Source of the DNA: Tortispora ganteri
Lineage: Eukaryota
Assembly (NCBI GenBank): GCA_003707115.1
Contig: PPNB01000033.1
Location: 1-64,000 of the forward strand
Direction: 5' to 3'
Length of the DNA: 64,000 nt
Under the pieces are notes generated by a model. That model searched no databases. It saw nothing but the letters and a program-made list of their open reading frames with translations, and was not told the origin of the DNA. The position numbers and the translations under genes are program-made. The stretch's first letter is position 1; each line of letters opens with the position of its first letter. This document shows positions 1 through 57,567 of this stretch, one piece after another.

Positions 1-483
1 AAGGCGCTCGACAACAAACAAGGCGACCCACTTTTGCGTTACTCTGTGCTATTGCGCCAGCTAGGCATGGCGTTGTATTTTACGCACGACGGGCTGAATA
101 TTCTCTACCAACTAAAAGTATTAACACCAACGAAGGCGATGTCAGGCCCAATCGTGCAGCGCCGTGGATTCATTTTCTGGACGGTGGCGCTGTCTGCGGG
201 CATTGCGGGGGGCGTATACAAGCTGGTCGGTTTGGGGGCGCAAATTAGGGCGCTGCGCAAGGTGACGGCATCGAAGTATAGTGAGGCAGAGGATAAGATA
301 GCACTGGAGAAGGCAAATGCGCAAGTGAAAGCGGTTGTCCTGCAGTTGATTCAGGATGCATGCGATCTCACTATCCCGACGACCGGGCTTTATGGCACCT
401 TCACCGACGGTACGGTTGGTGCTGCGGGCATTATTTCATCATTACTTGGATTCCGAACGGAATGGATGGCTTCTGCTAATTAA
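1..483 (+). CDS. PEX11: Peroxisomal biogenesis factor Pex11, C-terminal part (5' end outside window)
   Basis: Frame open from base 1 (KALDNKQGDPLLRYSVLLRQLG...). C-terminal LQLIQDACDLTIP...DGTVGAAGIISSLLG..W is Pex11-like. Confidence 0.85.
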   Translation, partial: KALDNKQGDPLLRYSVLLRQLGMALYFTHDGLNILYQLKVLTPTKAMSGPIVQRRGFIFWTVALSAGIAGGVYKLVGLGAQIRALRKVTASKYSEAEDKIALEKANAQVKAVVLQLIQDACDLTIPTTGLYGTFTDGTVGAAGIISSLLGFRTEWMASAN

Positions 484-1175
484 TAATAGCACCATCAAGA
501 TTATATATAGTCAGTGGACAACCTTTAGACTGTAGTCTCCTCACGTAACCTGCTATGGGCCATTCGTTGACATCACCAACGACAGAGACGGCAGTAGTTT
601 GTGCAACAAATGCGTCTATGTGATCGACGTCTGCGAGACGCAAAGGTTCGCCATCCCATACGACATCTGGTCGCATGATTGTGCCGCAAAGTGTGCAAAG
701 CGGCACTTTAACGGTATCTGACCAAGCGGCCGCCGACAATGTTTCAACGTTTGTACAATCAAAACCTGTACATTTCTGTCTGAATAGATCTCCGCGGACT
801 TTTATGAGGCTCGTTCCACCAGGATGACCAGCAGCTTCAAGGCGGACATCCGGATCGAGCGAGACGGTGAGCATTGCAGGACCAAGAGCACGGGCCCACC
901 GGACGATTTGTGAAACGGCTATGACAGGTTCCTCATTGAGGCTATCGTGAGCAACTTGCCTTTTCTCGCGGTAAATACTCCAGATTGCTGCTGGGTCTTC
1001 ATAAAACATTTCTGGAAGGATTCGTCGCGGAATTGTTTGTGGGCCTAGGCTGACTATTATTTTGACCTGTTAGAATGACAATTATTAAAGGAATAATAAA
1101 TTTAATTAAATCACAATATTGTTTAAATTACTTACCTAGCACTAATAATTTTCCATTAAATTCATTTAGATTCAT
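476..1175 (-). CDS. Degenerate class III (SIRT5/CobB-like) sirtuin. Exon 1 1175-1136 (alternative ATG 1184), intron 1135-1054, exon 2 1053-476, ~205 aa
   Basis: PEMFYEDPAAIWSIY, CTGFDC...PLCTLCGTIMRPDVVWDGEPL and VVG are sirtuin hallmarks. Donor AG|GTAAGT at 1135, branch CTAAC 1073-1069 and TAG acceptor at 1054 give in-frame MNLNEFNGKLLVLV-SLGPQ. Confidence 0.75.
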
Positions 1176-2568
1176 CGATTGCATAATCTTCGTCGTCTAA
1201 TGCAGCAGCAAATCGAGAATCTTGAAGTATTGGTTTGGGAGCTTTAGGTGTAATAGGTTGTGCAGCTCTGATTCTCGAAGCTCGTTGTGCTTCCATTTTC
1301 TTCCGAATTGTATCTTTACGAACAGTTTCAGCAGAATTAGGATCAAGTAATAGTTTGGCTTGATCATATAATCGTTGATCAATAAAGAATCCATGCATGT
1401 AAGCCCGTACAGTCTTTGTACCTTTAAGATGATCCAGACCTAGAGCTGAAAGTTCACGACGCGTAACAAATCTGTAATTCTGATAAACACTCTGTTCTCC
1501 AGATTCTTCCATTTCTTCTGTAATAGAATCAAGAAATGAACACCATTTAGGAGCAGGACCAAGCGCAGGAATGTAGAATGCATGCATCGGTTTACCTTCA
1601 TTAGCTGTCATTACCATTCCACTATCTTTATACCATACAGCATCGTTCATACCCTCCACAGAGACAGACCATACTTGAGAGTTTTGTGTTGGTTCCCATA
1701 GTTTTAGTCCTGCACGATCACCAGACATCACCCTGTTCTGTCCCACAAACTCTAGCGTGTTAATAGCAAACCCAAATCCTTGATCGCGTCGAGTTAATGG
1801 CGTCGACTTACGCAGATCCCATATTATTGTGTATCCATCACTTGTACCCGCTGCAAAAGTCAATCCATCTTTGTAAGCCAATTTGCTCACACCACCTTTG
1901 CTACCTTCGTCTACTGACAATGCCACCACCGGCCGTGGTCGCGTCCGTGAATCAAAAAATTCTACCACGCCCTCTTCTGTCCCACATGCCACTAAACCAT
2001 GGTATTCGTTCACAACAACATCGTTCACTCCACCTGTTTCGTTCAACTCCGCAGAAGACAGAAATTTGCCTTGGTCGAGGTTCAACCTGAACACTTCTGA
2101 GCCTGCAGCCGCCACGTACAAATCGCAGTTTCTTCGGTCGTAAGCCAGACTCCTACCAAACCGCGGAATTCGCGTCCGAGTATATATACCACCTTGTGCT
2201 TGAAACTCGATCCATCGGTCGTTTTGAAGATGTACTGATTTAGTCCAGTCGTCTGAAATTATCTCGAAATCGACGTTCTCAGCGTCAGTGTGTCGTGTGA
2301 ACTTCATAGATAAGTTCGCCAAATCGTATACATGCAGCTGAGGCTTGTATGTACCTGTAGCCATAATGAACTCCCCATCCTGCGAAATTTTCAGCCGGTT
2401 TGATGCTTCTTCGAACTCAAAGTCTTGGATCAACTCAATCCGATTCGCATACTCTAAGTCTTCTTTTAGCTCCCTTTTTTTCTTCCGTGCAATCCATTCA
2501 GGCAGTGATCGGCTTGTATTAGTACCGGCTACTTGATAGATCGTCGTTCCTAGGTTGGTCTTCAACAT
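1162..2568 (-). CDS. ENP2: Ribosome biogenesis WD40 protein Enp2/NOL10
   Basis: RIELIQDFEFEEAS, MATGTYKPQ, HLQNDRWIEF, IPALGPAPKWCSFLD, RAYMHGFF; ends at a NUC153-like DSRF motif. Confidence 0.96.
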   Translation of the reverse strand: MLKTNLGTTIYQVAGTNTSRSLPEWIARKKKRELKEDLEYANRIELIQDFEFEEASNRLKISQDGEFIMATGTYKPQLHVYDLANLSMKFTRHTDAENVDFEIISDDWTKSVHLQNDRWIEFQAQGGIYTRTRIPRFGRSLAYDRRNCDLYVAAAGSEVFRLNLDQGKFLSSAELNETGGVNDVVVNEYHGLVACGTEEGVVEFFDSRTRPRPVVALSVDEGSKGGVSKLAYKDGLTFAAGTSDGYTIIWDLRKSTPLTRRDQGFGFAINTLEFVGQNRVMSGDRAGLKLWEPTQNSQVWSVSVEGMNDAVWYKDSGMVMTANEGKPMHAFYIPALGPAPKWCSFLDSITEEMEESGEQSVYQNYRFVTRRELSALGLDHLKGTKTVRAYMHGFFIDQRLYDQAKLLLDPNSAETVRKDTIRKKMEAQRASRIRAAQPITPKAPKPILQDSRFAAALDDEDYAIDESK

Positions 2569-2631
2569 TCTATAGGTATCTAAAATGCAATGAAGAGGAA
2601 AGAAAAAAAATCCTGAAAGTGGAACGGCGAA

Positions 2632-2638
2632 TTACCCG
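2632..2638 (+). promoter_or_regulatory. Reb1-like site upstream of ENP2
   Basis: TTACCCG about 65 bp upstream of the ENP2 ATG; the same motif recurs upstream of SAH1 and RKI1. Confidence 0.45.
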
Positions 2639-2794
2639 TTTAGGTATTTCCCAGTAACAATTGTGCATTGTGATTGGTCATTTACATTTAAAGTTAAATA
2701 TTTACGCCAAAATGTGCATGTTTCTATCTAGTTTTATATCTTGTGCTGTAGCGTTATACGATATAGCCGTCCTTTATACTGGAAACAAGCAGGT

Positions 2795-4447
2795 CTAGGA
2801 TTTCTGGATCTCTTCGATGACACTCATGGCAGCAAATACCTTTTCATCCTGGTAACGGAAACCAACAAGTTGCAGTGCCACAGGAGACTTTGCGTACTCT
2901 TCAGGTCCACCGTAAAGGTTGTATACGAATTCGTCCATAGTACTGACGGGTTTGTAATCGGGCACGGGGAGATCGGTATCCTTGACTTCGGACGCAGGGA
3001 AGATAATGCTCGGATAGTCGACCAAGTTCCAGTGCGAAGTGTACGGCCAGTACTTAGTAGTATGAGGCTTAGGCGCCGAGAAAGGACTAACAGGGCAGAT
3101 TAGCACATCGATATTTTTCGAGAGCCAATACTGCGCGTGCTCTGAGCGGAACTCATCTCTTTCGTGGTTCTTAGCCCATAGTTCAGTGACCGACAGCGGT
3201 TTAACGAACTCGTGGTTCATGATATAGTCGGTCATGAAGCAGTGGGGCTCATTCACGGCATCCATAGTACGCTTGTCGTCAGCACCAGCGTCAGGGTAGT
3301 AGAGTTGAGAGATAATGCTCCATGCGTACCAGGGCTTGTAGCATTCATAAGGGACGACCTCGATTTCAACGTCGCCTTTGTACGCCTTAATCTTAGCCTC
3401 GAGCTCCTTTATAGCGCGTACGACTGGCGGATGAGGCATAACATAGCCGTCCCAGACCTCAACACCGACTCTAAGTTTCTTAGGTTTGGGTGCGGGGGTC
3501 CAGGGAAGGTCGATGTTGGAGTGATCGTACAGATAGGGCTTATAATCGATCATGACCTGCATGAATAAGTCAGAGGCAAACAGCGATCTAGTGATCGGGC
3601 CAATTGCCAGGCCAATAGCATCATTACCGGTCATCGGGTTCTTGAAACAGCCTTTTAAAGAAGAACGTCCAACAGTAGCACGAACACCAAAGAGACCATT
3701 ATGCGCGGCAGGGGAGCGGATACTGCCACCGATATCGGTACCGATTCCGAGCGGCGAACCATAGCCACCGACAAGCGCGCCTTCTCCGCCAGAAGAACCG
3801 CCAGAAGAAAGAGCAGTATTGTAGGCGTTGCAAGTGCGACCCAAGATAGCACTTTCGCACTCAATGTGCATGATACTCTGTGGCTGAGTGGTACGTGCGT
3901 GGATAATAGCGCCAGCGCCGACGACAGCCTTTATCACTAAAGCGTCGTCATCAGCAACAAAATCAGCACCTACAGAGTAGCCTGTATTGCAAGTTTTGCC
4001 CTTAATGCCTATATGTTCTTTAGAAGAGATAGGCAGACCGTGCATAGGTCCGACGGGTTTGCCGGTCTCCTTGAGAATCTTGTCAAGTTCAGTAGCGCGC
4101 GCAATGGCTTCATCCCAGAGCAGTTCAGTGATACAATTGGTGGTCAACTGGCAGAGCATTGCTCTACGCATGAATGCCTTAACGCAAGTGACAGCGCTGA
4201 GTTCACCAGAAGCAAGCTGAACGAGCAAATCCTTGACGCAGGTTTCTGTAATTTTGACTTCCTCGGCAGTGAGAACCTGCGCGGCAAGTGACTGAGGGAA
4301 TTGTAAATCTGCACCTTCAGGCAGCACAACTTGCGGTTCAACTTTCTTAAGAGACTCATCGCGCAAAGCTACGATCTTCTTGCGGTTCTTTTCGAAGATT
4401 GACTCATTCGGGTCAGAGTAGATATTAACGGCGCTGAGACTGTTCAT
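2795..4447 (-). CDS. Amidase-signature family enzyme (acetamidase/AMD2-like)
   Basis: GPMHGLPISSKE (catalytic Lys), SSGGSSGGEG, GTDIGGSIRSPA (Ser-cisSer-Lys triad). Confidence 0.95.
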   Translation of the reverse strand: MNSLSAVNIYSDPNESIFEKNRKKIVALRDESLKKVEPQVVLPEGADLQFPQSLAAQVLTAEEVKITETCVKDLLVQLASGELSAVTCVKAFMRRAMLCQLTTNCITELLWDEAIARATELDKILKETGKPVGPMHGLPISSKEHIGIKGKTCNTGYSVGADFVADDDALVIKAVVGAGAIIHARTTQPQSIMHIECESAILGRTCNAYNTALSSGGSSGGEGALVGGYGSPLGIGTDIGGSIRSPAAHNGLFGVRATVGRSSLKGCFKNPMTGNDAIGLAIGPITRSLFASDLFMQVMIDYKPYLYDHSNIDLPWTPAPKPKKLRVGVEVWDGYVMPHPPVVRAIKELEAKIKAYKGDVEIEVVPYECYKPWYAWSIISQLYYPDAGADDKRTMDAVNEPHCFMTDYIMNHEFVKPLSVTELWAKNHERDEFRSEHAQYWLSKNIDVLICPVSPFSAPKPHTTKYWPYTSHWNLVDYPSIIFPASEVKDTDLPVPDYKPVSTMDEFVYNLYGGPEEYAKSPVALQLVGFRYQDEKVFAAMSVIEEIQKS

Positions 4448-5449
4448 GGTTTTAAGTGAAAATGTGCTGAATTGACCTGAGAAATTGACAGAATCCGCGG
4501 TTATTTATATATTATCGCATTCTAATTGTAAATTGCTATAGATAACGTTCAATAAAGGAGGTTCGATCGCGCTGGTTGGCTAGTTGTTCACGCTAATCCG
4601 TCCGCGATAGGCGAGTGTATGAACGTTAATCTATTTAAACTTCTGGCAGTTTTACTGGGCTTTCTTATCACACTGATTACGGAAACTTGCGCCCCTACAG
4701 TTTCTATTTTTATAATATCATATGGGATCGATAATTATAAGAAATTTATGTAATTGATTTTATATGTATATTACTAGATTGTTTTTTTTTTGGTATATGG
4801 ATTGATTTGCTGCCTCTAGCCGTTTATAGAGCATTCATTAGTTTACTATCGCGTACCCCACAAGGAAATTAATTGCTTTTTGACTAATACATTTTAAAGT
4901 CATAAAACTAATCATTATTTTTTTAGATAAATAAAAAACAAATCTAACAGCGCTATTAGAGTTTTTAACCACCATCTCAATTTCAATTAAGCCAATAACT
5001 ATGCGTTTTTTGAAACAAATTTACCGCCATTTTGATAGATTAAGCATCGCGCTTTCATGTCCCAAAACGGTAATCAATGATTGGTAAAAAGAGAAAAAAG
5101 CAAATCTCCCTTGGCGTTCAAAATGTTCGAATTCGGCTCGGTTACCGCTAGCCATTATTCACTGTATTACGTAATTTTATAAACAATACAAAAGCAAAAA
5201 AATAAAATAAAATACTTGTACAAAAATTTAGAACTTTTGTTTAGTAAAGCAAATGATGCCTCTTGCTCTTATTGTAGTAGTTACAATGGTCCCCTGATTT
5301 TCGTCCATTAAACCTATTCTCAACTGTTTTTTTTCCTAATTAAGACAGTGCCGTTTTACAGTAGCTAAAAATTTATTCCATACATTTGTAATATGGATAA
5401 TAAATAAATAACAGAAAATGATCATTAAGCATTTAGGGCTGTAATTATC

Positions 5450-7252
5450 CTAGTCATCATCAATTTTACGTGTTTCGATCGATGGCCTCTTATCAAACTC
5501 CTCCACAGGTGCAGCCGGTTCAGCTGTCTCAGTCGCAGGAGCCTTATCTTCGCTTTGCATATGCGAATCTTCTGATCCTGTAACTCTACCTTCAGACATA
5601 TCCTTATCAAGCTTGCCTCGAGGTCCACTACCACCAGGCCCACTGACCCGTCGACCTTTACCTCCTCCTCGAGGAGGACGCGCTCCTCGAGAAGACGCCG
5701 AAAAAACACTGTGTCCATTAGATCCATTATAAGTTCCATTGCCAAACCTGTTCGCTCTTTGAGAAATAAGCGACGCTTTGCCGGCCTTCTCGGCATCTAG
5801 CCGGTTCAATGCCGTTTCGGCTTCTTCCTGAGTAGCAAAATGAACAAGTGCAAATCGCGAACCAGTAGCCGTAGCAGCCTTAATACTGATCTCAGTGATA
5901 AGAGGAACGTCTGATGAATCAAATAGAGCTTTAATAGCTTTCTCTTCCGAAATATCCGTATTGCTTACTTCTGGAATCTTAGCAATCCAAACTCCAGGCT
6001 TAAATGTACTTTGCACAGAGCTTTGATTACTCTGTCGAGCATCTGCTCGTCTGTTCGCAAAGTGCCTAGTGTCACCTGGACCTGAATCTGTTGAAGAAGC
6101 ACCTGCAGCAGTATGAGACTGCCTGTAATTGAACGAAAATCCTTTACTCTTCATTTCCATTCCAATGCGTCCGTCTACGACTTCTAGAATCAAAGACCCG
6201 ATTTGAATATCAGACAAATTGAAATTCCATTGGTTCTTAAACCCAACAGATATAGCTTCATCACCTTCGGCTGACGGTGTATCGTCTACCCATGGCATCT
6301 TGTCAACAACAGAGAGCGCAGTTCCTAGTAGTGCTTTCTGTATAGGATCTGTCTGTAAAATTTGTATGACCTCGTCTTTAACGGTAGACCATACGTCATT
6401 AAACTGAGCATGCGCAGCTGCAAGCTTACTGCGGAAATGATTCAGCGATGGGTTGACACTGAATTCGTTATAGGAAGTGCCGCAGCGGAAATGAAGACCG
6501 GCAGATACAGTGAAATCAGCCTTCAGCGTTAGAGCAATTTGAGCCAAAATACCGTCACGCGCAGTAGAGGCGTGCGACAAAAAAATTCTTGTTTCAGAAG
6601 GATCAAATACAGAAGAAGCTGTTTGTATGAGGCGTCCTAGCTGAATCATAGTCACCCACATCGTGCCTTGGCCGCCGGCAATAGTAGAGGTGCCTACACC
6701 GTTGTCAAAAAGCTTATGCATTACAACGGCGCCGCCAAGCCCAAACACGCGAAGTTTGACGCCTTGATTAGTTTCGATCAAATATGTAGAGGCTTCATCG
6801 ACGATGTGGAGGTTTTCGATTACTATATCCTTGCGTCTGATCTGTTCCAGCACCTCAATATCCTCGCACGCTCCCCATACTGTGTAAATAGGGACTTTGA
6901 ACTTTTTGTGACCAGATATGTACGCGGGAAAATGCGATAGAGGTGTGCTACCAGCAGCTGCAGCTGCAGCAGAGGTAGATTGAGAGCTCAATACAGATCG
7001 AAGGTCAGAGGAATCGTGTGGTAAAGATTTGAAATCAACTAGCGGACTATACTGCGCGAGGTGGCGTAGCGTGTTGTCAGATATGCGTCCTACCGAGTTT
7101 CTATCAAAAAACCCAAAATCGCCCGAATGAAAAATACAATCGACTTTATGTTCAGCAGCTAAAGCATTCAGCTGATCCAAGTTTCCCCTTGCATCGGCGA
7201 CTAACAGCAGTCGATAGCCATTCTGCTCTACTACGCGTCCATTCAGCGTCAT
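5450..7252 (-). CDS. Fungal calcineurin-like metallophosphoesterase-fold protein (DUF2433-like) with C-terminal RRM and RGG tail
   Basis: LLVADARG, HSGDFGFFD, YTVWGACED, FLSHAS, SAGLH; RNP1-like RFALVHF..QEEAETAL; RGGGKGRR tail. First ATG at 7252. Confidence 0.7.
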   Translation of the reverse strand: MTLNGRVVEQNGYRLLLVADARGNLDQLNALAAEHKVDCIFHSGDFGFFDRNSVGRISDNTLRHLAQYSPLVDFKSLPHDSSDLRSVLSSQSTSAAAAAAGSTPLSHFPAYISGHKKFKVPIYTVWGACEDIEVLEQIRRKDIVIENLHIVDEASTYLIETNQGVKLRVFGLGGAVVMHKLFDNGVGTSTIAGGQGTMWVTMIQLGRLIQTASSVFDPSETRIFLSHASTARDGILAQIALTLKADFTVSAGLHFRCGTSYNEFSVNPSLNHFRSKLAAAHAQFNDVWSTVKDEVIQILQTDPIQKALLGTALSVVDKMPWVDDTPSAEGDEAISVGFKNQWNFNLSDIQIGSLILEVVDGRIGMEMKSKGFSFNYRQSHTAAGASSTDSGPGDTRHFANRRADARQSNQSSVQSTFKPGVWIAKIPEVSNTDISEEKAIKALFDSSDVPLITEISIKAATATGSRFALVHFATQEEAETALNRLDAEKAGKASLISQRANRFGNGTYNGSNGHSVFSASSRGARPPRGGGKGRRVSGPGGSGPRGKLDKDMSEGRVTGSEDSHMQSEDKAPATETAEPAAPVEEFDKRPSIETRKIDDD

Positions 7253-7592
7253 TGTGCAAAACAAACTTGTTTAATTTTTGACCACAAATAATCAAATAAA
7301 TTAAATATGTGCCTCTGTCTTTAAAAATTTAATTGATCACTCAATAGTAGGAATGTCGATCGGATGCAGAGAACGTATACTTACACAGTGCAAAAGAGAG
7401 AGGAGGAAGATGTATGTATGTGCAAATCAAGTTGGCACAGCAACAACAAAGCAAAACGACTTATGATTGGTCAGAACCTAATTGTCTGTACCACCAGGTT
7501 TTGAGAATGGAAACCTACACCATCACTGAAGTGCGAGCTTGACGCATACAGCGATCGATCGTTGCACTAAATACTTATTGCTCTGCTAGCCA

Positions 7593-10500
7593 ATGGACAC
7601 GAATTCATGGGGAAGCACGCCTACAAATGTACTACGGCTAGCACATCCTCTACCGAACGTGTCTTTCCGCGTCTACGTAGACTCTTCATGGGCTTCAGAT
7701 GATCATATGCGGCTCGAGAGAGCCGTCAACCAAATTCGACTCCTTCATCCAAATTCCCTCGTCGCTTCTCACCAATCAGAACTCTTTGTTTTTGCATCGC
7801 TAGATGCAAGCGGTAAAATGCCAGATTTAAACGATTTACTTGTTAACAGACTTCACCTCATAGAGACTACAATGGGCACCTTTATGCCTGCAAGCTTATC
7901 GGTTTCTTCTAATCGGACCCCACCTGTATATATCGCATTTACTGAAGCACTGAGAGGATTAATATTTAACCACCTGATTGCATCAGCGCGTGCTGTACCT
8001 ATCCACTCTTCTGAACGTCCAAGATTGCTCGTAAAACATCCAGACTCACCTTCAATGGCTCTCCTTTCTGTCAGCATTACGGTATCTCCAAAGTCAGATA
8101 TTATCATAATCCCGCAATGCACCTCATCTATGCTCTATCCTGCTGCAGATCTATTGCCTGGCTCTGTTGTCATGCTTGCCCCTACCTACTCAGTGACTAC
8201 ATTCATATCGGCCACTGCTGCCCCTATCTATGCTTCTACGATCGTCTCTGAGTTACAGGCATCCTACGGTCTCTACCAGACATATACACCAGATAAGTGG
8301 CTACTTCTCAGTATATCAAGTGGCAATTCCTTAAAGAACATCTCCTGGCCGGCCGATCTCTGCTTTAGTGTGCGTACAACGGCTGCCGTCCCTTCTCAGT
8401 ATTCCTATCAGCGTTATATAGAATGGTTCAATCTGCCACGACCATCCTCTTTTTTCTTCTCTTCTAAAATCCGCAGCTCCGGCCCTTCACCCGTTAGAAC
8501 CTCTTCGGGACCTTCGTCTGATGCGCACACTGTTCCACTAGAACCAGAGATATCAGTCCATCTGCCTACTGTGATCAAACCCGTCGATACTAAAAATACT
8601 CTTGATTCCAGTCTTAATCGTCCTACCATTGCAGCAAATTCTGATCCCTTGGAAGGTTCTGCCGTAGAATCCACTGCTCAGCCTGCCAACATGGTTGCGG
8701 ATACCGAACAGTCATGGAACCAAGTAACCGCATTGGATTCAAATGAAATGCTGTGGAAAGACTTTGCGGACGATGACGAATTGTTTCAAGGGCCAATAAA
8801 CGATGACGATTTTGATTTCTTCGATGCACCATACCAACCTGTCAAATCAGCGGAACCACAGAATGAAGAAATCCCGCAAATTGTAAAAGACGACGAAAAG
8901 ATACTCATATCGACAGGAGAGTCTGCTACTAAAATCGAATCGGCAAAAGAATTCGATGAAATAGATGAAAACGAACAGACAGACCCGACACCAGATGTTG
9001 ACATGCTGGACATGTCCTCATACAAACAGGCAATCCTTGAACCGGCTCAAATACAGTGTCAAGTGTCTTGCAAGGAAGAAAACACGGAAAAGGACGCGTT
9101 CAGCCCTGTCAAGTTTTCTAAAAACTTACCAACACTGCTGGACTCCAAGTACTCGGTAGGAGGGAAGTTTTTTGTTAATGACCAGGACCCTTCAAAGGAT
9201 ATATCTGCTATGTTTATCGATGATTATGATGAGTACGGTAGCAGCGATGTTAGCAGCGTGGTCATTGAGGACTCCAACGAATCTAACCTTCGTCATTCGG
9301 CGCACTCTGAAACGATTCTTAAGTCCCGGATGAATTTAGAACGGCAAATTGGCGCCATTCAACATTCTGTGGAGGCAGAACAAAATAAAAATAACGATTA
9401 TGATGAGGATGAAAACAAAAAAGATAACGAAAACGACGAGATAACGAATTCGGTATTGAATGATTTACTGTACCAGCCGGATTTAAAAAATAGAGGATTC
9501 AGCCGTCTTATTGAGATTATGGATTATCCTCATATGAGCACTAGCGATATCGAGAAACTTACTTTGATGGTCAGCCGTCAGCTCGCTTTTGCTCAAAAAA
9601 GGTATATTAGTCAAAGAGGTAATACCTTTGCTGACTGGGTTATAGATGAAGGGGAGTCACTGGACATACCTGAAGATTTTCTAGATATAGTGAGGAAATT
9701 AGTAGGCTCATACAACAAAATTGGACTTCTCGAGTATTTGGAGTTGCACGAATCCTCATACGGAGCTATTACCAGACTGCAACGCGTTCCTACGACTTCA
9801 TCGGAGGATATGCTGCTGGATGATTCAGATCAGACGTCAATTTCATTAAACTCACTGGTATTTGATATGCCGCATATTATGATGAAACGGTTTGGCCGAC
9901 CACTTAAAATCCTGCCTAGTGTTCTACCCTTTTGGCATTTTTTTGGCTGCCAACCGTACTCTGGACCTCTAGACGCTACAGTGTACTTCGCTGTACCTGG
10001 AAGCGACGGAGTCCAACACGCCGCTATGTTGTTCCTCAACTCCTTGAAGCAGTGCTACAAGAAGTGCGAACTCGGTACGCTGACTTTGGGTAGTAGCTTG
10101 ACGCAATCGAAGAACGACTCGGAAGAGCCGAGTGGTTTGGTACCAATCCAACTGAATATGGATAAACTAGCAGATAAGTCTCTATTGCAATCTTCCGAGA
10201 TATTAGTGCAATACAGTCACGCAATATCTCAATTGAAAAAAGCATTGACCAAACATACTGCTTTTGAAGACAGAATTTTATTACTAATTGCCAACCCTTT
10301 TGACGAAGACGTTTCTTTGTTTGAAATTTGCAGAAGCTTTTGCTCCATTAAAGAAGAGCTAGGTTCACGTCGCATTCACCTCCAAATTATACCTGTCGAC
10401 AGATTCTGTTCGCTTGATGGCTATACTGTTCCTACGCCAAAAGAATATACCAACATCGCTTTGAGATTATACGAAGGGCTAGGTGCGTCAGACAACTTAA

Positions 10501-11864
10501 AGGAAGATCTAAATGAAGTGCCCTCTAGTTTTCAACTAGCCAAACCTATTCCGAACATTATTCCATTCAATTTTGGCCCAGCTGTATCAGATCCGCTATT
10601 TGAGGACAATTCTGCTGTACACATTAGTTACTCACGAACTGCTGATCGTCGCTGGATTGTAGCTTCATGGACTGACAACAGAGGTTCGTTTTTGTTCAGT
10701 CGCAGCTTTTGTTTGACAAGAGGAAGCCAGCGACCAAAGTCAATTGAGGAAGTGATTGGTAGTATATGGGAGAAAACCATGACCTTTATTCGCAGAAAGA
10801 AGATCAGATGGAGAATAATCGTAACTCGACTAGGTATAGTTGAAGAAGATGAGCAAGTGGCATGGACCAACATGTTCGCAAGTGCAGAAATGGAATTCAG
10901 CACCACAAAAACGGTTGCGCGATCTGGTTCTGCTACACCAATTACCTCAGTTCTGCCAGTCGGAAGTCATATCGATTCCTCAAAGCACAATAGCTTTTCA
11001 ATGCCAATCAGTACTGGAAAATCAACCGATTTATCGCATTCCAGCATGACCCTGCCTGTGGGGCTAGACACGCAATCTTCCGCGGGCGGTTTAATTGAGT
11101 GCGATATCCGAATTGTTTGTGTGTTGGTGAGTATGGTCCCGTGTACTGAGATTGTGTTTGGGAAACAACAATGCAATTACACTAACAAATACGGTCTTGG
11201 AGGTCCTCTGACTGGCGAGTGGTCAATGACTCCTTCTGCTGCGCTTGACCTGCTCGGTTCTACACCACTTGGTCGCGGCGACTCTCCAAATCTGTTTGGA
11301 GTTGGCTCTGTTTGTGGTAACTCAGGATTCACGCCTCATACTGGTGGAGCGCATGATATTCTTAGTACCAATACACCTGCAAAGAGCGGGGCTACTCCTG
11401 GCCCGGACGAGTTTGACGGCGTTGGTGCACCGCAGACAACAGGGATAGTGCACATTGAGGATACAAACGAAGTAATTATGGATGCGTGCGAGGAGATAAT
11501 CACTATTATTCTGAAAAACCGCCGGTCGGTAATGTCCACCATCGATACCAGCATGGAGAGCTATTCGACGAAGAGTTACCTGGACATAGGGTTATTCATT
11601 AAAGGTCCTGGACGGATGGCGAGTGACGCGAGCAATCGCAGTAGAAGCAAGCCATCGCTACTTGAGATAGGAATGTTGTATATGACAGAAGGAGGGCTTC
11701 TAGGGAACAGCAGTAGCGGTTCCATGTTCAAAGAAGTTTTACAGGAATTCCGGCAGCTGGTGACATTAAATAACTGTCGTAAGCCGGAGGAAGAACAGGG
11801 AATATATCCTGTTCATGTGGAAGCAGTTGATCTGCTTGAAAGAGTAGTTGATGTAGTGAGATAA
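7593..11864 (+). CDS. SSN2: Mediator kinase-module subunit Med13
   Basis: 1423 aa; DDDFDFFD, LDSKYSVGGKF, LPFWHFFGCQPYSGP, HISYSRTADRRWIVASWTDNRG, EFRQLVTL, YPVHV. Confidence 0.9.
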   Translation: MDTNSWGSTPTNVLRLAHPLPNVSFRVYVDSSWASDDHMRLERAVNQIRLLHPNSLVASHQSELFVFASLDASGKMPDLNDLLVNRLHLIETTMGTFMPASLSVSSNRTPPVYIAFTEALRGLIFNHLIASARAVPIHSSERPRLLVKHPDSPSMALLSVSITVSPKSDIIIIPQCTSSMLYPAADLLPGSVVMLAPTYSVTTFISATAAPIYASTIVSELQASYGLYQTYTPDKWLLLSISSGNSLKNISWPADLCFSVRTTAAVPSQYSYQRYIEWFNLPRPSSFFFSSKIRSSGPSPVRTSSGPSSDAHTVPLEPEISVHLPTVIKPVDTKNTLDSSLNRPTIAANSDPLEGSAVESTAQPANMVADTEQSWNQVTALDSNEMLWKDFADDDELFQGPINDDDFDFFDAPYQPVKSAEPQNEEIPQIVKDDEKILISTGESATKIESAKEFDEIDENEQTDPTPDVDMLDMSSYKQAILEPAQIQCQVSCKEENTEKDAFSPVKFSKNLPTLLDSKYSVGGKFFVNDQDPSKDISAMFIDDYDEYGSSDVSSVVIEDSNESNLRHSAHSETILKSRMNLERQIGAIQHSVEAEQNKNNDYDEDENKKDNENDEITNSVLNDLLYQPDLKNRGFSRLIEIMDYPHMSTSDIEKLTLMVSRQLAFAQKRYISQRGNTFADWVIDEGESLDIPEDFLDIVRKLVGSYNKIGLLEYLELHESSYGAITRLQRVPTTSSEDMLLDDSDQTSISLNSLVFDMPHIMMKRFGRPLKILPSVLPFWHFFGCQPYSGPLDATVYFAVPGSDGVQHAAMLFLNSLKQCYKKCELGTLTLGSSLTQSKNDSEEPSGLVPIQLNMDKLADKSLLQSSEILVQYSHAISQLKKALTKHTAFEDRILLLIANPFDEDVSLFEICRSFCSIKEELGSRRIHLQIIPVDRFCSLDGYTVPTPKEYTNIALRLYEGLGASDNLKEDLNEVPSSFQLAKPIPNIIPFNFGPAVSDPLFEDNSAVHISYSRTADRRWIVASWTDNRGSFLFSRSFCLTRGSQRPKSIEEVIGSIWEKTMTFIRRKKIRWRIIVTRLGIVEEDEQVAWTNMFASAEMEFSTTKTVARSGSATPITSVLPVGSHIDSSKHNSFSMPISTGKSTDLSHSSMTLPVGLDTQSSAGGLIECDIRIVCVLVSMVPCTEIVFGKQQCNYTNKYGLGGPLTGEWSMTPSAALDLLGSTPLGRGDSPNLFGVGSVCGNSGFTPHTGGAHDILSTNTPAKSGATPGPDEFDGVGAPQTTGIVHIEDTNEVIMDACEEIITIILKNRRSVMSTIDTSMESYSTKSYLDIGLFIKGPGRMASDASNRSRSKPSLLEIGMLYMTEGGLLGNSSSGSMFKEVLQEFRQLVTLNNCRKPEEEQGIYPVHVEAVDLLERVVDVVR

Positions 11865-11909
11865 TGACAAACTTGACGAGACTAATAAAAGAAAAAAGAA
11901 GTATATATA

Positions 11910-12623
11910 TCATATGGACTCGAATTCGGCCATTGGTTGCAAAGAACGCAGATGACGGGCGAGTCTTCGTTCAAGAGCAGGATTCGCGGTCAAGACGTTC
12001 GTAGAGACAATCTGAGTGCATCCTGCGACAGGGCAAGGGTATTGAATTGTAGGGTCTCTTTCAATATACTGCATAATAGCTTCCTTGGAGTAAGCGTGTT
12101 TGCACAGGCTGTTGGTGACTGGATTCTGAAGCAAGTCGCCAGTCAGGGGGCACTTAAAGCTCTCTATGGCACGCTGTACGACAAGATCATCGTCGTTTTC
12201 ATCGTCATCATCTTCACCGCCAGATGAGTCGGAGTCGAACCATCTACGCGGGTCTTCAGGCAAATCTTCGTCGGCATGTCGGATCGCGTAGATGATACGT
12301 TTGATCTCTTTGTACAAGGGGTCGTTACCGAACCGCTTACTCTTTGGAAGTGCAGCTATTTCTAAGGCTATATCTTTCTTGTGTTGTAAGATTGCATTTA
12401 CGTCGCCAGTCAGGAGATCGGTCTTTGCGCGATCGCTGACTAGTTTCGCGATGACCATTTGTCTTGCAGACGCGTCAATATCTTTGGCAGCATCGCGTAC
12501 TTTTGGAGCGAGTTCGGGAATTTCACGCAGATCTTCAAATGCAGTCAGTGATTTACTGATCTCGTCCATACATAATTCATAAGTCTTTGTTTCAACAGGA
12601 ACTGTTCTAGAGATATGAGGCAT
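11910..12623 (-). CDS. MMS21: SUMO E3 ligase Nse2/Mms21 (SP-RING)
   Basis: DDDLVV...FKCPLT..LQNPVTNSLCKHAYSKEAIMQYI...CPVAGC. Confidence 0.88.
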   Translation of the reverse strand: MPHISRTVPVETKTYELCMDEISKSLTAFEDLREIPELAPKVRDAAKDIDASARQMVIAKLVSDRAKTDLLTGDVNAILQHKKDIALEIAALPKSKRFGNDPLYKEIKRIIYAIRHADEDLPEDPRRWFDSDSSGGEDDDDENDDDLVVQRAIESFKCPLTGDLLQNPVTNSLCKHAYSKEAIMQYIERDPTIQYPCPVAGCTQIVSTNVLTANPALERRLARHLRSLQPMAEFESI

Positions 12624-14209: not shown

Positions 14210-15949
14210 ATGACCCTTAAACCTGAGAATGCTCTTGAAGTACTCAAAGAGTACGAGCACCAAGATGGATTAGATGTTCATACGCTTATGGACTCGAAGA
14301 CCAGAGGTGGACTCACCTATAATGATTTTCTGATCCTACCGGGCAAAATTGATTTCGCCTCTAACGAGGTTTCACTGGAAACAAAGATCACCAAAAATAT
14401 TTCGATCAAGACTCCTTTTGCTTCTTCACCTATGGACACAGTCACTGAAGTTGATATGGCTGTGCATATGGCTCTGCTTGGTGGCGTGGGAATTATTCAT
14501 CATAACTGCACCGCCGAAGAACAGGCTGCTATGGTCCGCAAGGTCAAGAAGTATGAGAACGGTTTCATCACTGACCCTGTTGTCGTTTCTCCTGAATTAA
14601 CTGTCAAGGAGGTTTTGGCCTTGAAAGACAAACTCGGCTTTGCTGGGTTCCCTGTTACAGGTAAGTACCTTTTTTATTGCGAAAAAAAGCAAAACGCGCA
14701 CTATGATGTTTCTACAAACTTTCGTTCTACCAAGAAGCCGTAAAAGGCCTGCTGGACACCATATATAAAGGGCTTAAAGCCTGATCTGAGAGTGCCTTAA
14801 CTTTTGTTGTGGTTTGTGTATACTAACAATTATGTAGAGAACGGAAAGTTCCCTGCCAAGCTCATTGGTATTGTAACTTCACGCGATATCCAGTTTGAGG
14901 ACCCCAACGCCCTAATCAAAGATGTTATGACTACAGATGTCATTACTGCTTTTGAAGGTGTCACACTTAAAGAAGCCAACGAGGTTCTACGTCGTTCGAA
15001 GAAGGGCAAACTACCTATCGTGGACAAACAGGGCGTCATCACTTCTCTTCTTTCCAGAACCGATCTGAAGAAGAATTACCATTATCCCTTAGCGAGCAAG
15101 GAACCGCATTCCAAACAGTTACTCTGTGGTGCAGCTATTGGTACACGTCCTGCTGATCGCGACCGTTTAAAGCTCCTTTCTGATGCGGGTCTTGACATTG
15201 TGGTTCTTGACTCTTCGCAAGGCAACTCCATCTACCAGATTGAGATGATCCAGTGGATCAAGAAAAATTTCCCAAAAATAGATGTTATTGCTGGCAATGT
15301 AGTGACCCGTGAACAGGCTGCCAGCCTTATTGCTGCTGGTGCAGACGCTTTACGTATTGGCATGGGTTCTGGATCGATTTGTATTACGCAAGAGGTCATG
15401 GCTGTTGGACGTCCCCAGGGCACTGCAGTCTACCAGGTATCGCAGTTCGCTGCCAGATTTGGCGTTCCCACTATTGCTGATGGCGGTATTAGTAACGTTG
15501 GACACATAACTAAGGCTCTTGCACTCGGTGCGAGTGCTGTAATGATGGGTGGTCTACTTGCCGGCACTACTGAAGCACCTGGTGAGTACTTGTACCGGGA
15601 GGGTCAGCGCGTCAAAGCATATCGTGGTATGGGATCTATCGATGCGATGCAACGTTCTGGAAACAACGAGAATGCTGCTACCAGTAGATACTTCTCGGAA
15701 GCGGACTCTGTACTTGTTGCACAGGGAGTTTCTGGACAAGTCGTCGACAAGGGCAGTATTACCAAGTTTGTACCTTACTTGGCATCAGGCTTACAGCATG
15801 GTCTTCAGGATATTGGCGTGAAGAGCGTCAGTGAGCTCAGAGAAGGCAGCAGTAGTGGCAAAATTCGATTTGAAATGCGCTCGGCGTCCGCTCAGCTGGA
15901 AGGAGGAGTACACGGACTGTTTAGCTACGAGAAACGTCTGTACAACTAA
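14210..15949 (+). CDS. IMD4: IMP dehydrogenase. Exon 1 14210-14660, intron 14661-14837, exon 2 14838-15949
   Basis: [46 protein letters not shown]...TACTAAC...TAG intron joins FPVT-E-NGK in frame. Symbol chosen because the intron hosts an snR54-like RNA, as in S. cerevisiae IMD4. Confidence 0.96.
14698..14795 (+). ncRNA. SNR54: Intronic box C/D snoRNA, snR54-like (18S rRNA Am974 guide)
   Basis: Terminal stem GCACT/AGTGC; C-like ATGATGT 14703-14709; D box CTGA 14786-14789; guide AACTTTCGTTCT 14717-14728 complementary to conserved 18S AGAACGAAAGUU. Confidence 0.85.
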
Positions 15950-56689: not shown

Positions 56690-57567
56690 ATGAAAGTAAG
56701 TAAATTATCGCATCCCCCAAACCTTTGAAATAAGCACTAACAGTAATCCAGTACGTTGAGCTGCGCGATTTAGACATAATCAATCAGGCACTGAGATTCG
56801 ATGCCCCGGATTGCCGAGTCAAAGGAGGTTGTGATCTGTACACTACTAAATCAGCCGGTAACGATAAGAAACTGTATAAGGCTATCGATGAACATCTAGA
56901 CAACCTACGCGATAATGATGTAGGCCAGCCGATTGTTTCTCCTCCTGGATCGCTCAACGAGTCGACAATGGATAGCTACCTTCTGGGATCCAGCTTAACT
57001 TCTTTAAGCAGCCGCAGAGGAAGCCGATCCTCAGATTCCGGACCCGCGAGCAACGAACTTTCCGCTTCTGTTGGTTCCTCCCCATTTGGGCCCTTAGACC
57101 AAGTTTCGTCTCGGAGAACTTTCGCATATCTCATTGCTGTCCTGAATGCTTCGCATCCTGATCACGATTTTTCGACGCTTCGTCCTGTAGACTTCAAGCG
57201 CGAACGCAATGTTAGTCAAGTAATTAATGCATTCAATAATGCACTCTTTGGTCTGGGCATGCCTGTACCTCCGACTCTATGGGACATCGTGGATGACCAT
57301 ATTGATCTGAAAGAATCCGCAATTTATTCATACCAGCCTTCAGCATCTTTTCTAGCAGATGAACCATCGACGTTATGGTCTATGATGTGGTTCTTCTTTA
57401 ACAAGCGACGGAAACGTGTTGCATATATCTACTTAAAGACAGTTCGTTTACATTCTCCACTGTACGCAAAGCATCCGGATGGAGATGACGCCAGTATTAG
57501 CGATGCAAGCGGGTACGAACTGAATAACTATGAAGATGGAGTGGTTGGTGATCTTGAAATGAATTGA
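56690..57567 (+). CDS. MAF1: Pol III repressor Maf1. Exon 1 56690-56695 (MK), intron 56696-56751, exon 2 56752-57567
   Basis: ATGAAA|GTAAGT...CACTAAC...CAG|TAC gives MKYVE...GGCDLYTTK..DKKLYK, in frame with PFGPL, SRRTFAYLIA.LNAS.PDHDFS, FFFNKRRKRV. Confidence 0.95.

What the first reader, a model, noticed from the sequence alone, without database searches (positions are those of the whole stretch)
476..1175. Pseudo-sirtuin: Zn ribbon kept, NAD loop and catalytic His lost
Seen: the spliced protein follows class III sirtuin order, but the GAGxS/FRG cofactor loop is replaced by a short SLGPQTIPRRI, TQNxD reads SLDPD, the catalytic HG reads RG (IKVRGDL), FGE reads DGE and GTS reads GDV. All four Zn cysteines, an open frame and consensus splice signals persist. 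Established: these motifs are required for NAD-dependent deacylation, and the class III YxxR pair binds succinyl/malonyl groups (here YREK). Inference: a maintained, catalytically dead sirtuin, possibly an acyl-lysine reader or scaffold. It differs from class M sirtuins, which have His->Gln and retain NAD binding.
Basis: partly seen in the sequence, partly recalled or inferred. Interest (0 to 1): 0.75.

Follow-up and report, generated by a model that had tools for sequence, protein, structure and literature searches.

The report
Catalytically dead sirtuin in Tortispora yeast
A small yeast gene keeps the shape and zinc-binding cysteines of a SIRT5-type sirtuin enzyme but has lost every part needed to bind its cofactor NAD and do chemistry, and it seems to be kept by selection in two related species, so it is probably a non-enzymatic leftover put to another, still unknown, use.

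Summary
The minus-strand frame 479-1069 (197 codons) is a class III (SIRT5/CobB-like) sirtuin homologue: Pfam SIR2 31.3 bits against a cutoff of 24, and an AlphaFold model (pLDDT 87.6) that matches SIRT5 at TM 0.80-0.84.

- **Lost:** the GAGxS/FRG loop is deleted. TQNxD reads SLDPD, HG reads RG, FGE reads DGE and GTS reads GDV.
- **Kept:** all four zinc cysteines.
- **How unusual:** of 153 relatives, 149 keep the His. Only this protein and its one close relative lose all motifs. That relative is Tortispora caseinolytica CANCADRAFT_42871, 92% identical with no gaps.
the C-terminus is about 25-35 residues short. Both gene ends abut or overlap neighbours (a truncated ENP2 and PEX11).

Maintenance is supported only indirectly, because no sister-species DNA and no RNA run could be had. 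Four of the 14 changed codons need two or more base changes (P<0.001 under uniform neutrality). The neighbouring essential ENP2 is only 96% identical. The frame stayed open although 17 of 47 family-conserved columns changed. Three other constraint tests were not significant.

The 5' end is unresolved: either a spliced 205-aa form or a start at Met21. I read it as a maintained pseudoenzyme (0.55). A decaying relic remains possible (0.27). The acyl-lysine-reader idea is untested. The scan held no look-alike stretch in other genomes.

The parts
476..1053 (-). Main coding exon of the sirtuin-like gene, with stop TAA at 478-476. The open frame itself extends up to 1069.
   Evidence: open frame of 197 codons, Pfam SIR2 at 31.3 bits, SIRT5 as best solved relative; 92% identical and gap-free to T. 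caseinolytica P0001.
1054..1135 (-). Candidate 82-nt intron: GTAAGT donor, CTAAC branch site at 1074-1070, TAG acceptor at 1056-1054. Not verified by RNA.
   Evidence: The same GTAAGTAA...CTAAC type is seen just upstream of the ORF at 56734. The region has 32-36% GC, like non-coding DNA.
1136..1175 (-). Candidate exon 1: ATG at 1175-1173, 13 codons plus 1 base. It overlaps the last codons and the stop of ENP2.
   Evidence: joined in phase it gives a 205-aa frame. Its peptide aligns with helix 0 and strand 1 of relatives (NLNEF with d.xSF; KLLVLVSLG with kilaLvGAG).
1007..1009 (-). Alternative start codon (Met21 of the frame). The annotated T. caseinolytica model starts here.
   Evidence: It is the first ATG on this strand downstream of 1155, read.
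1019..1051 (-). SLGPQTIPRRI: remnant of the GAGxS...FRG cofactor-binding loop, about 22 residues shorter than in relatives.
962..973 (-). YREK at the place of the class III YxxR pair (Y33 kept, K36 for Arg).
   Evidence: Y in 118 and R in 124 of 153 relatives.
848..862 (-). SLDPD in place of TQNxD.
791..796 (-). R92-G93 in place of the catalytic HG.
   Evidence: His in 149 of 153 relatives. See also the alignment.
686..772 (-). Zinc-ribbon module with C100, C105, C125 and C128 (CX4C ... CX2C).
   Evidence: Cys in 137-152 of 153 relatives at these columns. The yeast relatives share the CTxxxC form.
647..658 (-). WDGE in place of WFGE.
   Evidence: F in 144 of 153 relatives.
569..577 (-). GDV in place of GTS.
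   Evidence: T in 126 and S in 108 of 153 relatives.
1162..2568 (-). Upstream neighbour: ENP2/NOL10 homologue, ending inside its NUC153 domain. Stop TGA at 1164-1162.
   Evidence: 468 aa from its Met. It has the same ...EDYAIDESK end as T. caseinolytica P0002. Other yeasts have 572-723 aa.
1..483 (+). Convergent neighbour: 3' part of PEX11, with stop at 481-483, 2 nt from the sirtuin-like stop.
   Evidence: PF05648 at 104 bits, profile matched to its end (222 of 222).

Best explanation
This is a sirtuin-derived pseudoenzyme. It is a class III (SIRT5/CobB-type) sirtuin gene of Tortispora yeasts that has lost NAD binding and catalysis. The cofactor loop is deleted. The Q and N of TQNxD, the catalytic His, the Phe of FGE and the T and S of GTS are replaced. 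The C-terminal segment is missing. The gene still keeps the Rossmann/zinc-ribbon scaffold, and purifying selection has held it open since before two Tortispora species split.

Shown: the homology, the motif losses, the kept cysteines and glycines, and the colinear orthologue.

Inferred: selection at omega of roughly 0.1-0.3. This comes from protein differences mapped on this window's codons, not from a codon alignment.

Inferred with low confidence: it acts without NAD as a binding module for a protein or peptide partner. The cleft elements that staple substrate peptides in active sirtuins are still there (the G-E of the FGE loop and the WP.AG loop), and so is the zinc module. It cannot deacylate or ADP-ribosylate.
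For: - **Family and fold.** Pfam SIR2 above its cutoff. SIRT5 and CobB are the best matches by sequence. The AlphaFold model has pLDDT 87.6 and pTM 0.83 and matches SIRT5 at TM 0.80-0.84.
- **Selective pattern of loss.** Of 22 columns at least 90% conserved in 108 relatives, 15 are kept: three of the four Zn Cys (C100, C125, C128; the fourth, C105, is conserved in 137 of 153 relatives) and D74, G93, P123, R133, P134, V137, G140, E141, G165, P26, W30, A80. Seven are lost: N45, V49, L71, D72, R76, R92, D139. Only this protein and P0001 lose all the motifs among 155 sequences.
- **Orthologue.** It is 92% identical over 177 residues with 0 gaps, and has the same dead motifs and the same C-terminal end.
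- **Multi-hit codons.** Four of the 14 changed codons need two or more base changes. Under uniform neutral change tuned to 14 differences (d about 0.04), 2.3% are expected, and P(4 or more) was 0-0.0007 in simulations. ENP2 shows 3 of 19. Together that is 21%, which fits d of about 0.2-0.6 at free codons. At such d, a neutral frame would show 57-115 differences of 177 and stay stop-free in 0.5-7% of runs.
- **ENP2 as yardstick.** ENP2 differs at 19 of 468 residues. If the sirtuin-like frame were neutral, ENP2's omega would be about 0.45, which is implausible for this essential factor (inference).
- **Frame survival.** The frame stayed open, with only in-frame deletions, while 17 of 47 columns at least 70% conserved were replaced and a stem of 3.18 changes per column accumulated.
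Against: - No DNA of a second species could be had, so dN/dS was not measured. The selection estimate rests on 14 and 19 protein differences.
- 'Multi-nucleotide mutations could cause some double changes; allowing the roughly 3% rate I recall from the literature, my hand estimate is P of about 0.007.'
- Three other tests of constraint were not significant:
  - The substituted columns are not more variable in the family (p 0.22-0.24).
  - Kept conserved residues are not significantly spared (1 of 33 against 13 of 144, p 0.22).
  - Clustering of changes gives p 0.035-0.30 depending on window size.
- There is no room for a promoter if exon 1 is used, because its ATG lies inside the ENP2 coding sequence. 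If Met21 is the start, as in the T. caseinolytica annotation, the central strand 1 of the Rossmann sheet is missing.
- The C-terminus is clipped at the convergent PEX11 stop.
- Only two species are known to carry the gene.
- The good AlphaFold model leans on an alignment of active sirtuins.
Confidence: 0.55

Rival explanations
1. It is a decaying relic, a unitary pseudogene with a frame that happens to be still open. A deletion removed the ENP2 tail, the intergenic region and the sirtuin promoter, and another clipped the 3' end. What remains is untranslated DNA between ENP2 and PEX11. It looks conserved only because the two species are close, or because it lies under the 3' UTRs of both neighbours.
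For: - All functional motifs are gone and both termini are shortened.
- There is zero or negative spacing to both neighbours.
- ENP2 is truncated exactly here in both species.
- The yeast clade of this family shows other partial degenerations: P0122 has His to Asn, and P0127 and P0146 have degenerate GAG loops. From recall, S. cerevisiae lacks the family.
- Three constraint tests were not significant.
- The 64-kb window and the searches gave no expression evidence either way.
Against: - There are no stops or frameshifts in 197 codons in two species.
- The excess of multi-hit codons contradicts low, uniform neutral divergence.
- ENP2 at 96% against this frame at 92% gives a rate ratio of only about 2.
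- Zn cysteines and structural Gly and Pro are kept while the cofactor residues are lost.
- GC1 at 0.62 above GC2 at 0.45 and GC3 at 0.39, and an overall GC of 0.49, are coding-like. Non-ORF DNA has 0.375.
Confidence: 0.27
2. It is a reader of acidic acyl-lysine. In this view the former succinyl-lysine pocket (Y33, K36, now with R92 as well) still binds malonyl-, succinyl- or glutaryl-lysine without turning it over.
For: - Y33 is kept, and K36 keeps the positive charge of the class III Arg.
- His to Arg adds a cationic side chain in the pocket.
- The peptide-stapling loops are kept (G140-E141, W170-P171).
- The fold is closest to SIRT5 bound to succinyl peptides.
Against: - Nothing was tested directly.
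- The Phe of FGE is Asp here; from recalled SIRT5 structures, that Phe lines the lysine tunnel.
- The cofactor loop that closes over the acyl-lysine site is deleted.
- Arg to Lys weakens bidentate binding of a carboxylate (inference).
Confidence: 0.1
3. It is still an enzyme, with a different chemistry or a different cofactor bound in the remodelled pocket.
For: - D74 and N190 are kept.
- Several new charged residues (D72, R92, D139, D166) line the former pocket.
Against: - The phosphate-binding GAG loop, the FR pair, the GTS motif and the C-terminal segment are all absent.
- It scores 56.6 bits against a cutoff of 243 on the CobB-type NCBIfam model.
- No precedent was found in four literature searches.
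Confidence: 0.05

Closest known systems
SIRT5 / CobB (class III sirtuins, NAD-dependent lysine deacylases)
   Same: - They are the best matches by sequence (NCBIfam NF001753 and NF040867) and by fold (TM 0.80-0.84).
- The order of elements is the same.
- The zinc ribbon has four Cys.
- The Tyr of YxxR is kept.
   Different: - The cofactor-binding loop is deleted.
- TQN reads SLD, HG reads RG, FGE reads DGE and GTS reads GDV, and the Arg of YxxR is Lys.
- About 25-35 C-terminal residues are missing.
- It scores far below the family cutoffs (56.6 against 243 bits).
Yeast and fungal class III-like sirtuins found here: clusters P0122, P0125, P0127, P0123/P0126 (Sugiyamaella lignohabitans), P0128 (Metschnikowia sp.), P0146/P0274 (Martiniozyma asiatica), P0130 (Mycena rosella)
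   Same: - They are the nearest relatives after the orthologue, at 58-82 bits and 31-38% identity for the clusters named.
- They share the CTxxxC first cysteine pair and the VWPAAG-type loop.
   Different: - Most keep all motifs.
- Single lesions occur: P0122 has His to Asn, and P0127 and P0146 have degenerate GAG/FRG loops. None combines them.
- The Tortispora pair sits on a stem of 3.18 changes per column, and its placement is unsure.
Class M sirtuins (SirTM, ADP-ribosyltransferases; PMC4518038, passages read)
   Same: The catalytic His of the HG motif is replaced.
   Different: - SirTMs have QG, use NAD, and are linked or fused to a macrodomain.
- Here the motif is RG, the NAD site is dismantled, and there is no macrodomain in the protein or next to it.
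Pseudoenzymes derived from lysine deacetylases, such as class IIa HDACs (PMC12383505, search listing and start of abstract only)
   Same: The logic is the same: an eraser fold kept after loss of a catalytic residue and used for binding or scaffolding.
   Different: - The fold is unrelated (a zinc hydrolase, not a sirtuin).
- Class IIa HDACs keep their active-site architecture, whereas here the cofactor site itself is gone.

Membership tests
Sirtuin / SIR2 family (Pfam PF02146) | Sequence match above Pfam's gathering score | tested here: met
   31.3 bits against 24, E 2.3e-7, but only profile positions 94-172 of 180.
Sirtuin / SIR2 family (Pfam PF02146) | Rossmann domain plus zinc-ribbon small domain | tested here: met
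   Predicted only: pLDDT 87.6. Foldseek top hits are SIRT5, Sir2-Af1 and CobB at TM 0.72-0.84.
Sirtuin / SIR2 family (Pfam PF02146) | Four zinc-binding cysteines | tested here: met
   C100, C105, C125 and C128 lie in columns where 137-152 of 153 relatives have Cys.
Sirtuin / SIR2 family (Pfam PF02146) | GAGxS ... FRG cofactor-binding loop | tested here: not met
   Replaced by SLGPQTIPRRI, about 22 residues shorter.
Sirtuin / SIR2 family (Pfam PF02146) | TQNxD motif | tested here: not met
   SLDPD. Q is present in 134, N in 142 and D in 142 of 153 relatives. Only the D is kept.
Sirtuin / SIR2 family (Pfam PF02146) | Catalytic His of the HG motif | tested here: not met
   R92. His is present in 149 of 153 relatives.
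Sirtuin / SIR2 family (Pfam PF02146) | FGE and GTS motifs | tested here: not met
   DGE (F in 144 of 153 relatives) and GDV (T in 126, S in 108 of 153).
Sirtuin / SIR2 family (Pfam PF02146) | NAD-dependent deacylase or ADP-ribosyltransferase activity | not testable with these tools
   Needs biochemistry. The sequence predicts none.
Class III sirtuins (SIRT5/CobB) | Closer to class III than to other classes | tested here: met
   phmmer E: SIRT5 1e-9, Sir2-Af1 6e-7, CobB 7e-6, SIRT3 6e-3, SIRT2 0.2. The best NCBIfam models are CobB types.
Class III sirtuins (SIRT5/CobB) | YxxR pair that binds acidic acyl groups | tested here: inconclusive
   Y33 is kept and the Arg is Lys (K36). R is present in 124 of 153 relatives.
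Class III sirtuins (SIRT5/CobB) | NCBIfam curated cutoff (NF001753, NF040867) | tested here: not met
   56.6 bits against 243, and 48.2 against 320. The intact-looking yeast relatives also score below these cutoffs (120-169 bits), so the cutoffs are mainly bacterial.
Class M sirtuins (SirTM) | QG in place of HG, with a linked or fused macrodomain | tested here: not met
   RG. SIR2 is the only Pfam family in the protein. The neighbours are ENP2 and PEX11. Definition taken from PMC4518038.
Pseudogene | Disabling mutations (stops, frameshifts) or dN/dS near 1 | tested here: inconclusive
   There is no stop or frameshift in either species, and the indirect test argues against neutrality. dN/dS was not measurable.

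The most novel reading that the evidence does not exclude
A sirtuin has become a cofactor-free binding protein. It is kept by selection in Tortispora, and its former succinyl-lysine pocket (Y33, K36, plus the new R92) now reads acidic acyl-lysine marks, or holds a former substrate, instead of erasing the mark. That would be an 'eraser turned reader' within the sirtuin fold.
Probability: 0.1. Interest if true: 0.75.

Novelty: new variant of a known kind. Interest (0 to 1): 0.42.

Why it matters
Sirtuins are studied almost only as NAD-dependent enzymes. A member that has dismantled the NAD site but keeps the fold and zinc module under selection would be a natural experiment. It would show what the scaffold can do without chemistry, for example partner binding or regulation of an active paralogue.

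It would also add the sirtuin fold to the families with pseudoenzyme members. Four full-text searches found no described pseudo-sirtuin.

The weight of the finding is limited:
- It is known from two species of one small yeast genus.
- There is no expression evidence.
- The gene model is unresolved.
- Selection is inferred indirectly.

If it turns out to be a relic, it is still a tidy example of gene erosion in a very compact yeast genome, beside an ENP2 gene that lost its tail at the same spot.

Tried and rejected
- **Own genome.** None is held, so other sirtuin paralogues, including an intact class III copy, could not be looked for.
- **RNA evidence.** No RNA holder is listed. The two holders are DNA contig sets of the same organism, and the four other runs listed are other organisms with next to none of the words.
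- **Laying reads.** X1 and X2 on 1-12000 gave 19 differing places, none in 476-1175, and no indels or joints. That confirms the sequence but says nothing about selection or splicing.
- **Second calibrator.** The amidase at 2798-4504 has no Tortispora orthologue among the 120 listed hits (the best of 1320 at E<=1e-60); the best are 46-47% identical, from filamentous ascomycetes.
- **Family-conservation test of the 14 substitutions.** Not significant: p 0.22-0.24, Fisher p 0.22-0.28.
- **Clustering of substitutions.** The scan gives p 0.035 for an 11-residue window but 0.07-0.30 for 20-40 residues, and the largest gap has p 0.49. Not robust.
- **Tree placement.** The Tortispora pair joins P0130 and P0176 with weak support (73) on a 3.18-long stem. 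I do not rely on it. Fifty of the 155 sequences in hand were used, picked from the best-scoring hits.
- **ENP2 frameshift idea.** I considered that exon 1 might be the shifted continuation of the ENP2 NUC153 domain. The resemblance is only E-F and a nearby L, and exon 1 aligns better with sirtuin N-termini. Rejected as the main reading.
- **ENP2-sirtuin fusion by splicing.** Rejected, because the donor lies after the ENP2 stop.
- **Alternative acceptor CAG at 1068-1067.** Rejected. It lies 2 nt from the branch site and is out of phase with the GTAAGT donor.
- **Earlier scan notes.** There are no look-alike stretches. A word search gave only unrelated histidine-less sirtuins in other genomes.
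- **bioRxiv 10.1101/2025.10.31.685773.** The passages read concern an alanine-dehydrogenase-like pseudoenzyme, not a sirtuin.
Full report
**What is there.**
On the minus strand an open frame runs from 1069 to 479, 197 codons from stop to stop, with TAA at 478-476. It matches Pfam SIR2 (PF02146) at 31.3 bits against a gathering score of 24, E 2.3e-7. Only the second half of the profile is matched, positions 94-172 of 180.

Against all solved structures, the best sequence relatives are human and zebrafish SIRT5 (E 1e-9 to 5e-8). Archaeal Sir2-Af1 (about 7e-7) and E. coli CobB (about 8e-6) follow. SIRT3 (6e-3) and SIRT2 (0.2) are far behind. The best NCBIfam models are the CobB-type deacylases NF001753 and NF040867, but at 56.6 and 48.2 bits against cutoffs of 243 and 320.

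An AlphaFold2 model was built on an alignment of 110 sequences. These are the query and 109 of the 154 relatives in hand, namely those that cover at least 80% of the query and are at most 340 aa long. The model has mean pLDDT 87.6 and pTM 0.83. Foldseek places it on SIRT5 (query TM 0.80-0.84), then Sir2-Af1 and CobB. So the thing is a class III sirtuin homologue. The model leans on an alignment made mostly of active sirtuins.

**The motifs.**

| Family motif | Here | Relatives with the family residue (of 153) |
|---|---|---|
| GAGxS...FRG loop | SLGPQTIPRRI, about 22 residues shorter | not counted |
| TQNxD | SLDPD | Q 134, N 142, D 142 |
| HG | RG (R92) | His 149 |
| FGE | DGE (D139) | Phe 144 |
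| GTS | GDV | Thr 126, Ser 108 |
| YxxR | YREK (Y33 kept, K36) | Tyr 118, Arg 124 |
| Four Zn Cys | C100, C105, C125, C128 all kept | Cys 137-152 |

Only the window protein and its orthologue lose all motifs together. Four other rows lack His at the catalytic column. P0122 has Asn there and P0182 has Leu. Two are short fragments with a gap at that place.

The protein ends right after the last Rossmann strand (TIYNLD...). That is about 25-35 residues before relatives end: SIRT5 chain position 249 of 274, NCBIfam profile position 220 of 252.

**Relatives.**
In a 5.8-billion-protein collection, only one protein passed the word filter: Tortispora caseinolytica CANCADRAFT_42871 (P0001, 177 aa). It is 92% identical over 177 residues with no gap. 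It has the same dead motifs and ends at the same place. So the window comes from a close relative of that species.

A full HMMER scan of 1.84 billion representatives found 243 proteins at E<=0.001. Only P0001 is close (375 bits). The next hit scores 82 bits at 31% identity.

Named members among the nearest clusters come from Sugiyamaella lignohabitans, Metschnikowia sp., Martiniozyma asiatica and the basidiomycete Mycena rosella. These relatives share the CTxxxC first cysteine pair and the WPAAG loop. Most keep all catalytic motifs. A few carry single lesions: P0122 has His to Asn, and P0127 and P0146 have degenerate GAG/FRG loops.

On a quick tree of 50 sequences, the two Tortispora proteins sit on a stem of 3.18 changes per column, against a median end branch of 0.68. 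Their placement is unsure.

**Is it maintained?**
A direct dN/dS was impossible. No genome is held for the window. None of the collections I could search held a eukaryotic genome. The sequencing-run search listed only two DNA contig sets of the same organism and no RNA run. Those contigs agree with the window across 476-1175 with no differing letter or indel. They differ at 19 places elsewhere in 12 kb.

I therefore used the sister protein mapped on this window's codons.

- **Multi-hit codons.** Of 177 comparable codons, 14 differ, and 4 of those 14 need at least two base changes. In simulations of uniform neutral change tuned to give about 14 differences (d about 0.04), 2.3% of changed codons are of that kind. 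Four or more occurred in 0 to 0.07% of runs.
- **Multi-nucleotide mutations.** Allowing about 3% (a rate I recall, not a call), my hand estimate is P of about 0.007.
- **ENP2 as a comparison.** The neighbouring essential gene ENP2 differs at 19 of 468 residues, 3 of them multi-hit. Two of those are Thr to Met changes that also require a change at the third codon position.
- **Implied divergence.** The pooled 7 of 33 (21%) corresponds to d of about 0.2-0.6 at freely changing codons. At such d, a neutral frame would show 57-115 differences of 177 and stay free of stops in 0.5-7% of runs.
- **Resulting estimate.** This gives a rough omega of 0.1-0.3 for the sirtuin-like frame. It is an inference from few events, not a measurement.

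The family comparison points the same way. The frame has stayed open, with only in-frame deletions, while 17 of 47 columns at least 70% conserved were replaced. It keeps 15 of the 22 columns that are at least 90% conserved; these include three of the four zinc cysteines and the structural Gly and Pro residues (the fourth cysteine, C105, is kept too but sits in a less conserved column). The seven it has lost are N45, V49, L71, D72, R76, R92 and D139. Composition is coding-like: GC 0.49, with GC1 0.62, GC2 0.45 and GC3 0.39, against 0.375 for non-ORF DNA.

**Results that do not support constraint.**
- The 14 substituted positions are not significantly biased to family-variable columns (permutation p 0.24, Mann-Whitney p 0.22).
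- Retained conserved residues are not significantly spared (1 of 33 against 13 of 144, Fisher p 0.22).
- Clustering of substitutions is weak: p 0.035 for an 11-residue window around positions 43-53, and 0.07-0.30 for wider windows.
- A second calibrator failed. The amidase at 2798-4504 has no Tortispora orthologue among the 120 listed hits.

**Gene structure and context.**
Two models are possible.

- The ATG is at 1175, the GTAAGT donor at 1135, CTAAC at 1074-1070 and the TAG acceptor at 1056-1054. That gives an 82-nt intron and 205 aa.
- The same GTAAGTAA...CTAAC type occurs just upstream of another ORF, at 56696-56751.
- The 13 residues of exon 1 align with helix 0 and strand 1 of relatives.
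- However, this ATG lies inside the last codons of ENP2, whose stop is at 1164-1162. The transcript would have to start within the ENP2 coding sequence.

(b) *Start at Met21 (1009-1007).*
- This is the start in the T. caseinolytica annotation.
- There is no ATG on this strand between 1155 and 1009. The AT-rich 150 nt upstream could serve as promoter and leader.
- The product would then lack the central strand 1 of the Rossmann sheet.

I cannot decide between the two models without RNA.

At the other end, the stop lies 2 nt from the stop of the convergent PEX11 (481-483), whose own C-terminus is complete.

ENP2 itself ends inside its NUC153 domain at ...EDYAIDESK, in both Tortispora species. 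It has 468 aa, against 572-723 aa in other yeasts. A deletion that removed the ENP2 tail and the spacer in front of the sirtuin gene, before the two species split, would explain this layout (inference).

The genome is compact in general, with spacings of 23-100 nt between several other gene pairs.

**What it most likely is.**
It is a sirtuin that can no longer bind NAD or catalyse deacylation or ADP-ribosylation, on established knowledge of what these motifs do. It has been kept as an open, slowly changing frame in at least two Tortispora species. I put 0.55 on a maintained pseudoenzyme.

The likeliest mode of action is cofactor-free binding of a protein or peptide partner. It would act through the retained cleft loops (G140-E141, W170-P171...A173-G174) and the zinc module. 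This step is inferred and of low confidence.

The rivals are:
- a relic whose open frame and conservation are fortuitous or due to overlapping untranslated regions (0.27);
- a new chemistry (0.05).

**Comparison with what is known.**
It works like no described sirtuin.

- **Class III.** It is a homologue by descent, but it fails five of the family's functional hallmarks, so it should not be filed as a deacylase.
- **Class M.** Class M sirtuins replace HG by QG, use NAD, and are linked or fused to macrodomains (PMC4518038, passages read). None of that applies here.
- **Literature searches.** Four full-text searches turned up no described pseudo-sirtuin. They used the terms 'sirtuin' with 'pseudoenzyme'; 'sirtuin' with 'catalytic histidine', 'catalytically inactive' and 'homolog'; five variants of 'pseudo-sirtuin' or 'inactive sirtuin'; and 'class III sirtuin' with 'Saccharomycotina'. 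The library lacks most subscription journals.
- **Tortispora and sirtuins.** The one paper that mentions both (PMC7145719) was seen only as a search listing.
- **Earlier scan notes.** They held no look-alike stretch. They held only unrelated histidine-less sirtuins in other genomes.

**Verdict.**
'Maintained' is probable but rests on indirect evidence, and the function is unknown. I class it as a new variant of a known kind, of moderate interest.

Noticed in passing
window 1162-2568 (-): The ENP2/NOL10 homologue ends inside its NUC153 domain (...EDYAIDESK*) in this genome and in T. caseinolytica. It has 468 aa, against 572-723 aa in other yeasts. The whole C-terminal tail seems to have been deleted before the two species split.
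   Followed up: partly
window 2798-4504 (-): The amidase-signature protein (PF01425, 272 bits) has no Tortispora caseinolytica orthologue among the 120 listed hits. The best hits, at 46-47% identity, are from filamentous ascomycetes (Exophiala, Xylaria) and some Lipomycetaceae. This could be differential loss or gene transfer.
   Followed up: no
proteins P0122, P0127, P0146/P0274 (relatives, not in the window): Other members of the yeast class III-like clade carry single lesions. P0122 has Asn for the catalytic His. P0127 and the Martiniozyma asiatica cluster P0146 have degenerate GAG/FRG loops but keep His. The family may be relaxing repeatedly in budding yeasts.
   Followed up: partly
window 1054-1069 (-): The last 16 nt of the candidate intron continue the open frame upward and read VKIIV. 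This mimics strand 1 just as the exon 1 peptide KLLVL does. The CAG at 1069-1067 is 2 nt from the branch site and out of phase, so this looks like coincidence or a trace of a moved splice site.
   Followed up: partly
window 1162-1166 (-): The ENP2 stop TGA overlaps an ATG (ATGA). That ATG opens only a 7-codon frame ending in TAG, not the sirtuin frame.
   Followed up: yes
window 1-12000: The two public DNA contig sets of the same organism differ from the window at 19 single-base places in 12 kb (about 0.16%), with no indels. The window is therefore another strain, allele or assembly of the same species.
   Followed up: no
protein P0126 (Sugiyamaella lignohabitans, 668 aa, named Ugo1p): The sirtuin-like part occupies the C-terminal end of a model named Ugo1p. 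This is probably two neighbouring genes merged by annotation.
   Followed up: no
window 14661-14837 (+) and 56696-56751 (+): GTAAGT...CTAAC/TTAAC...AG intron-like signals lie between or just upstream of ORFs. They suggest the genome's intron consensus and some split genes.
   Followed up: no
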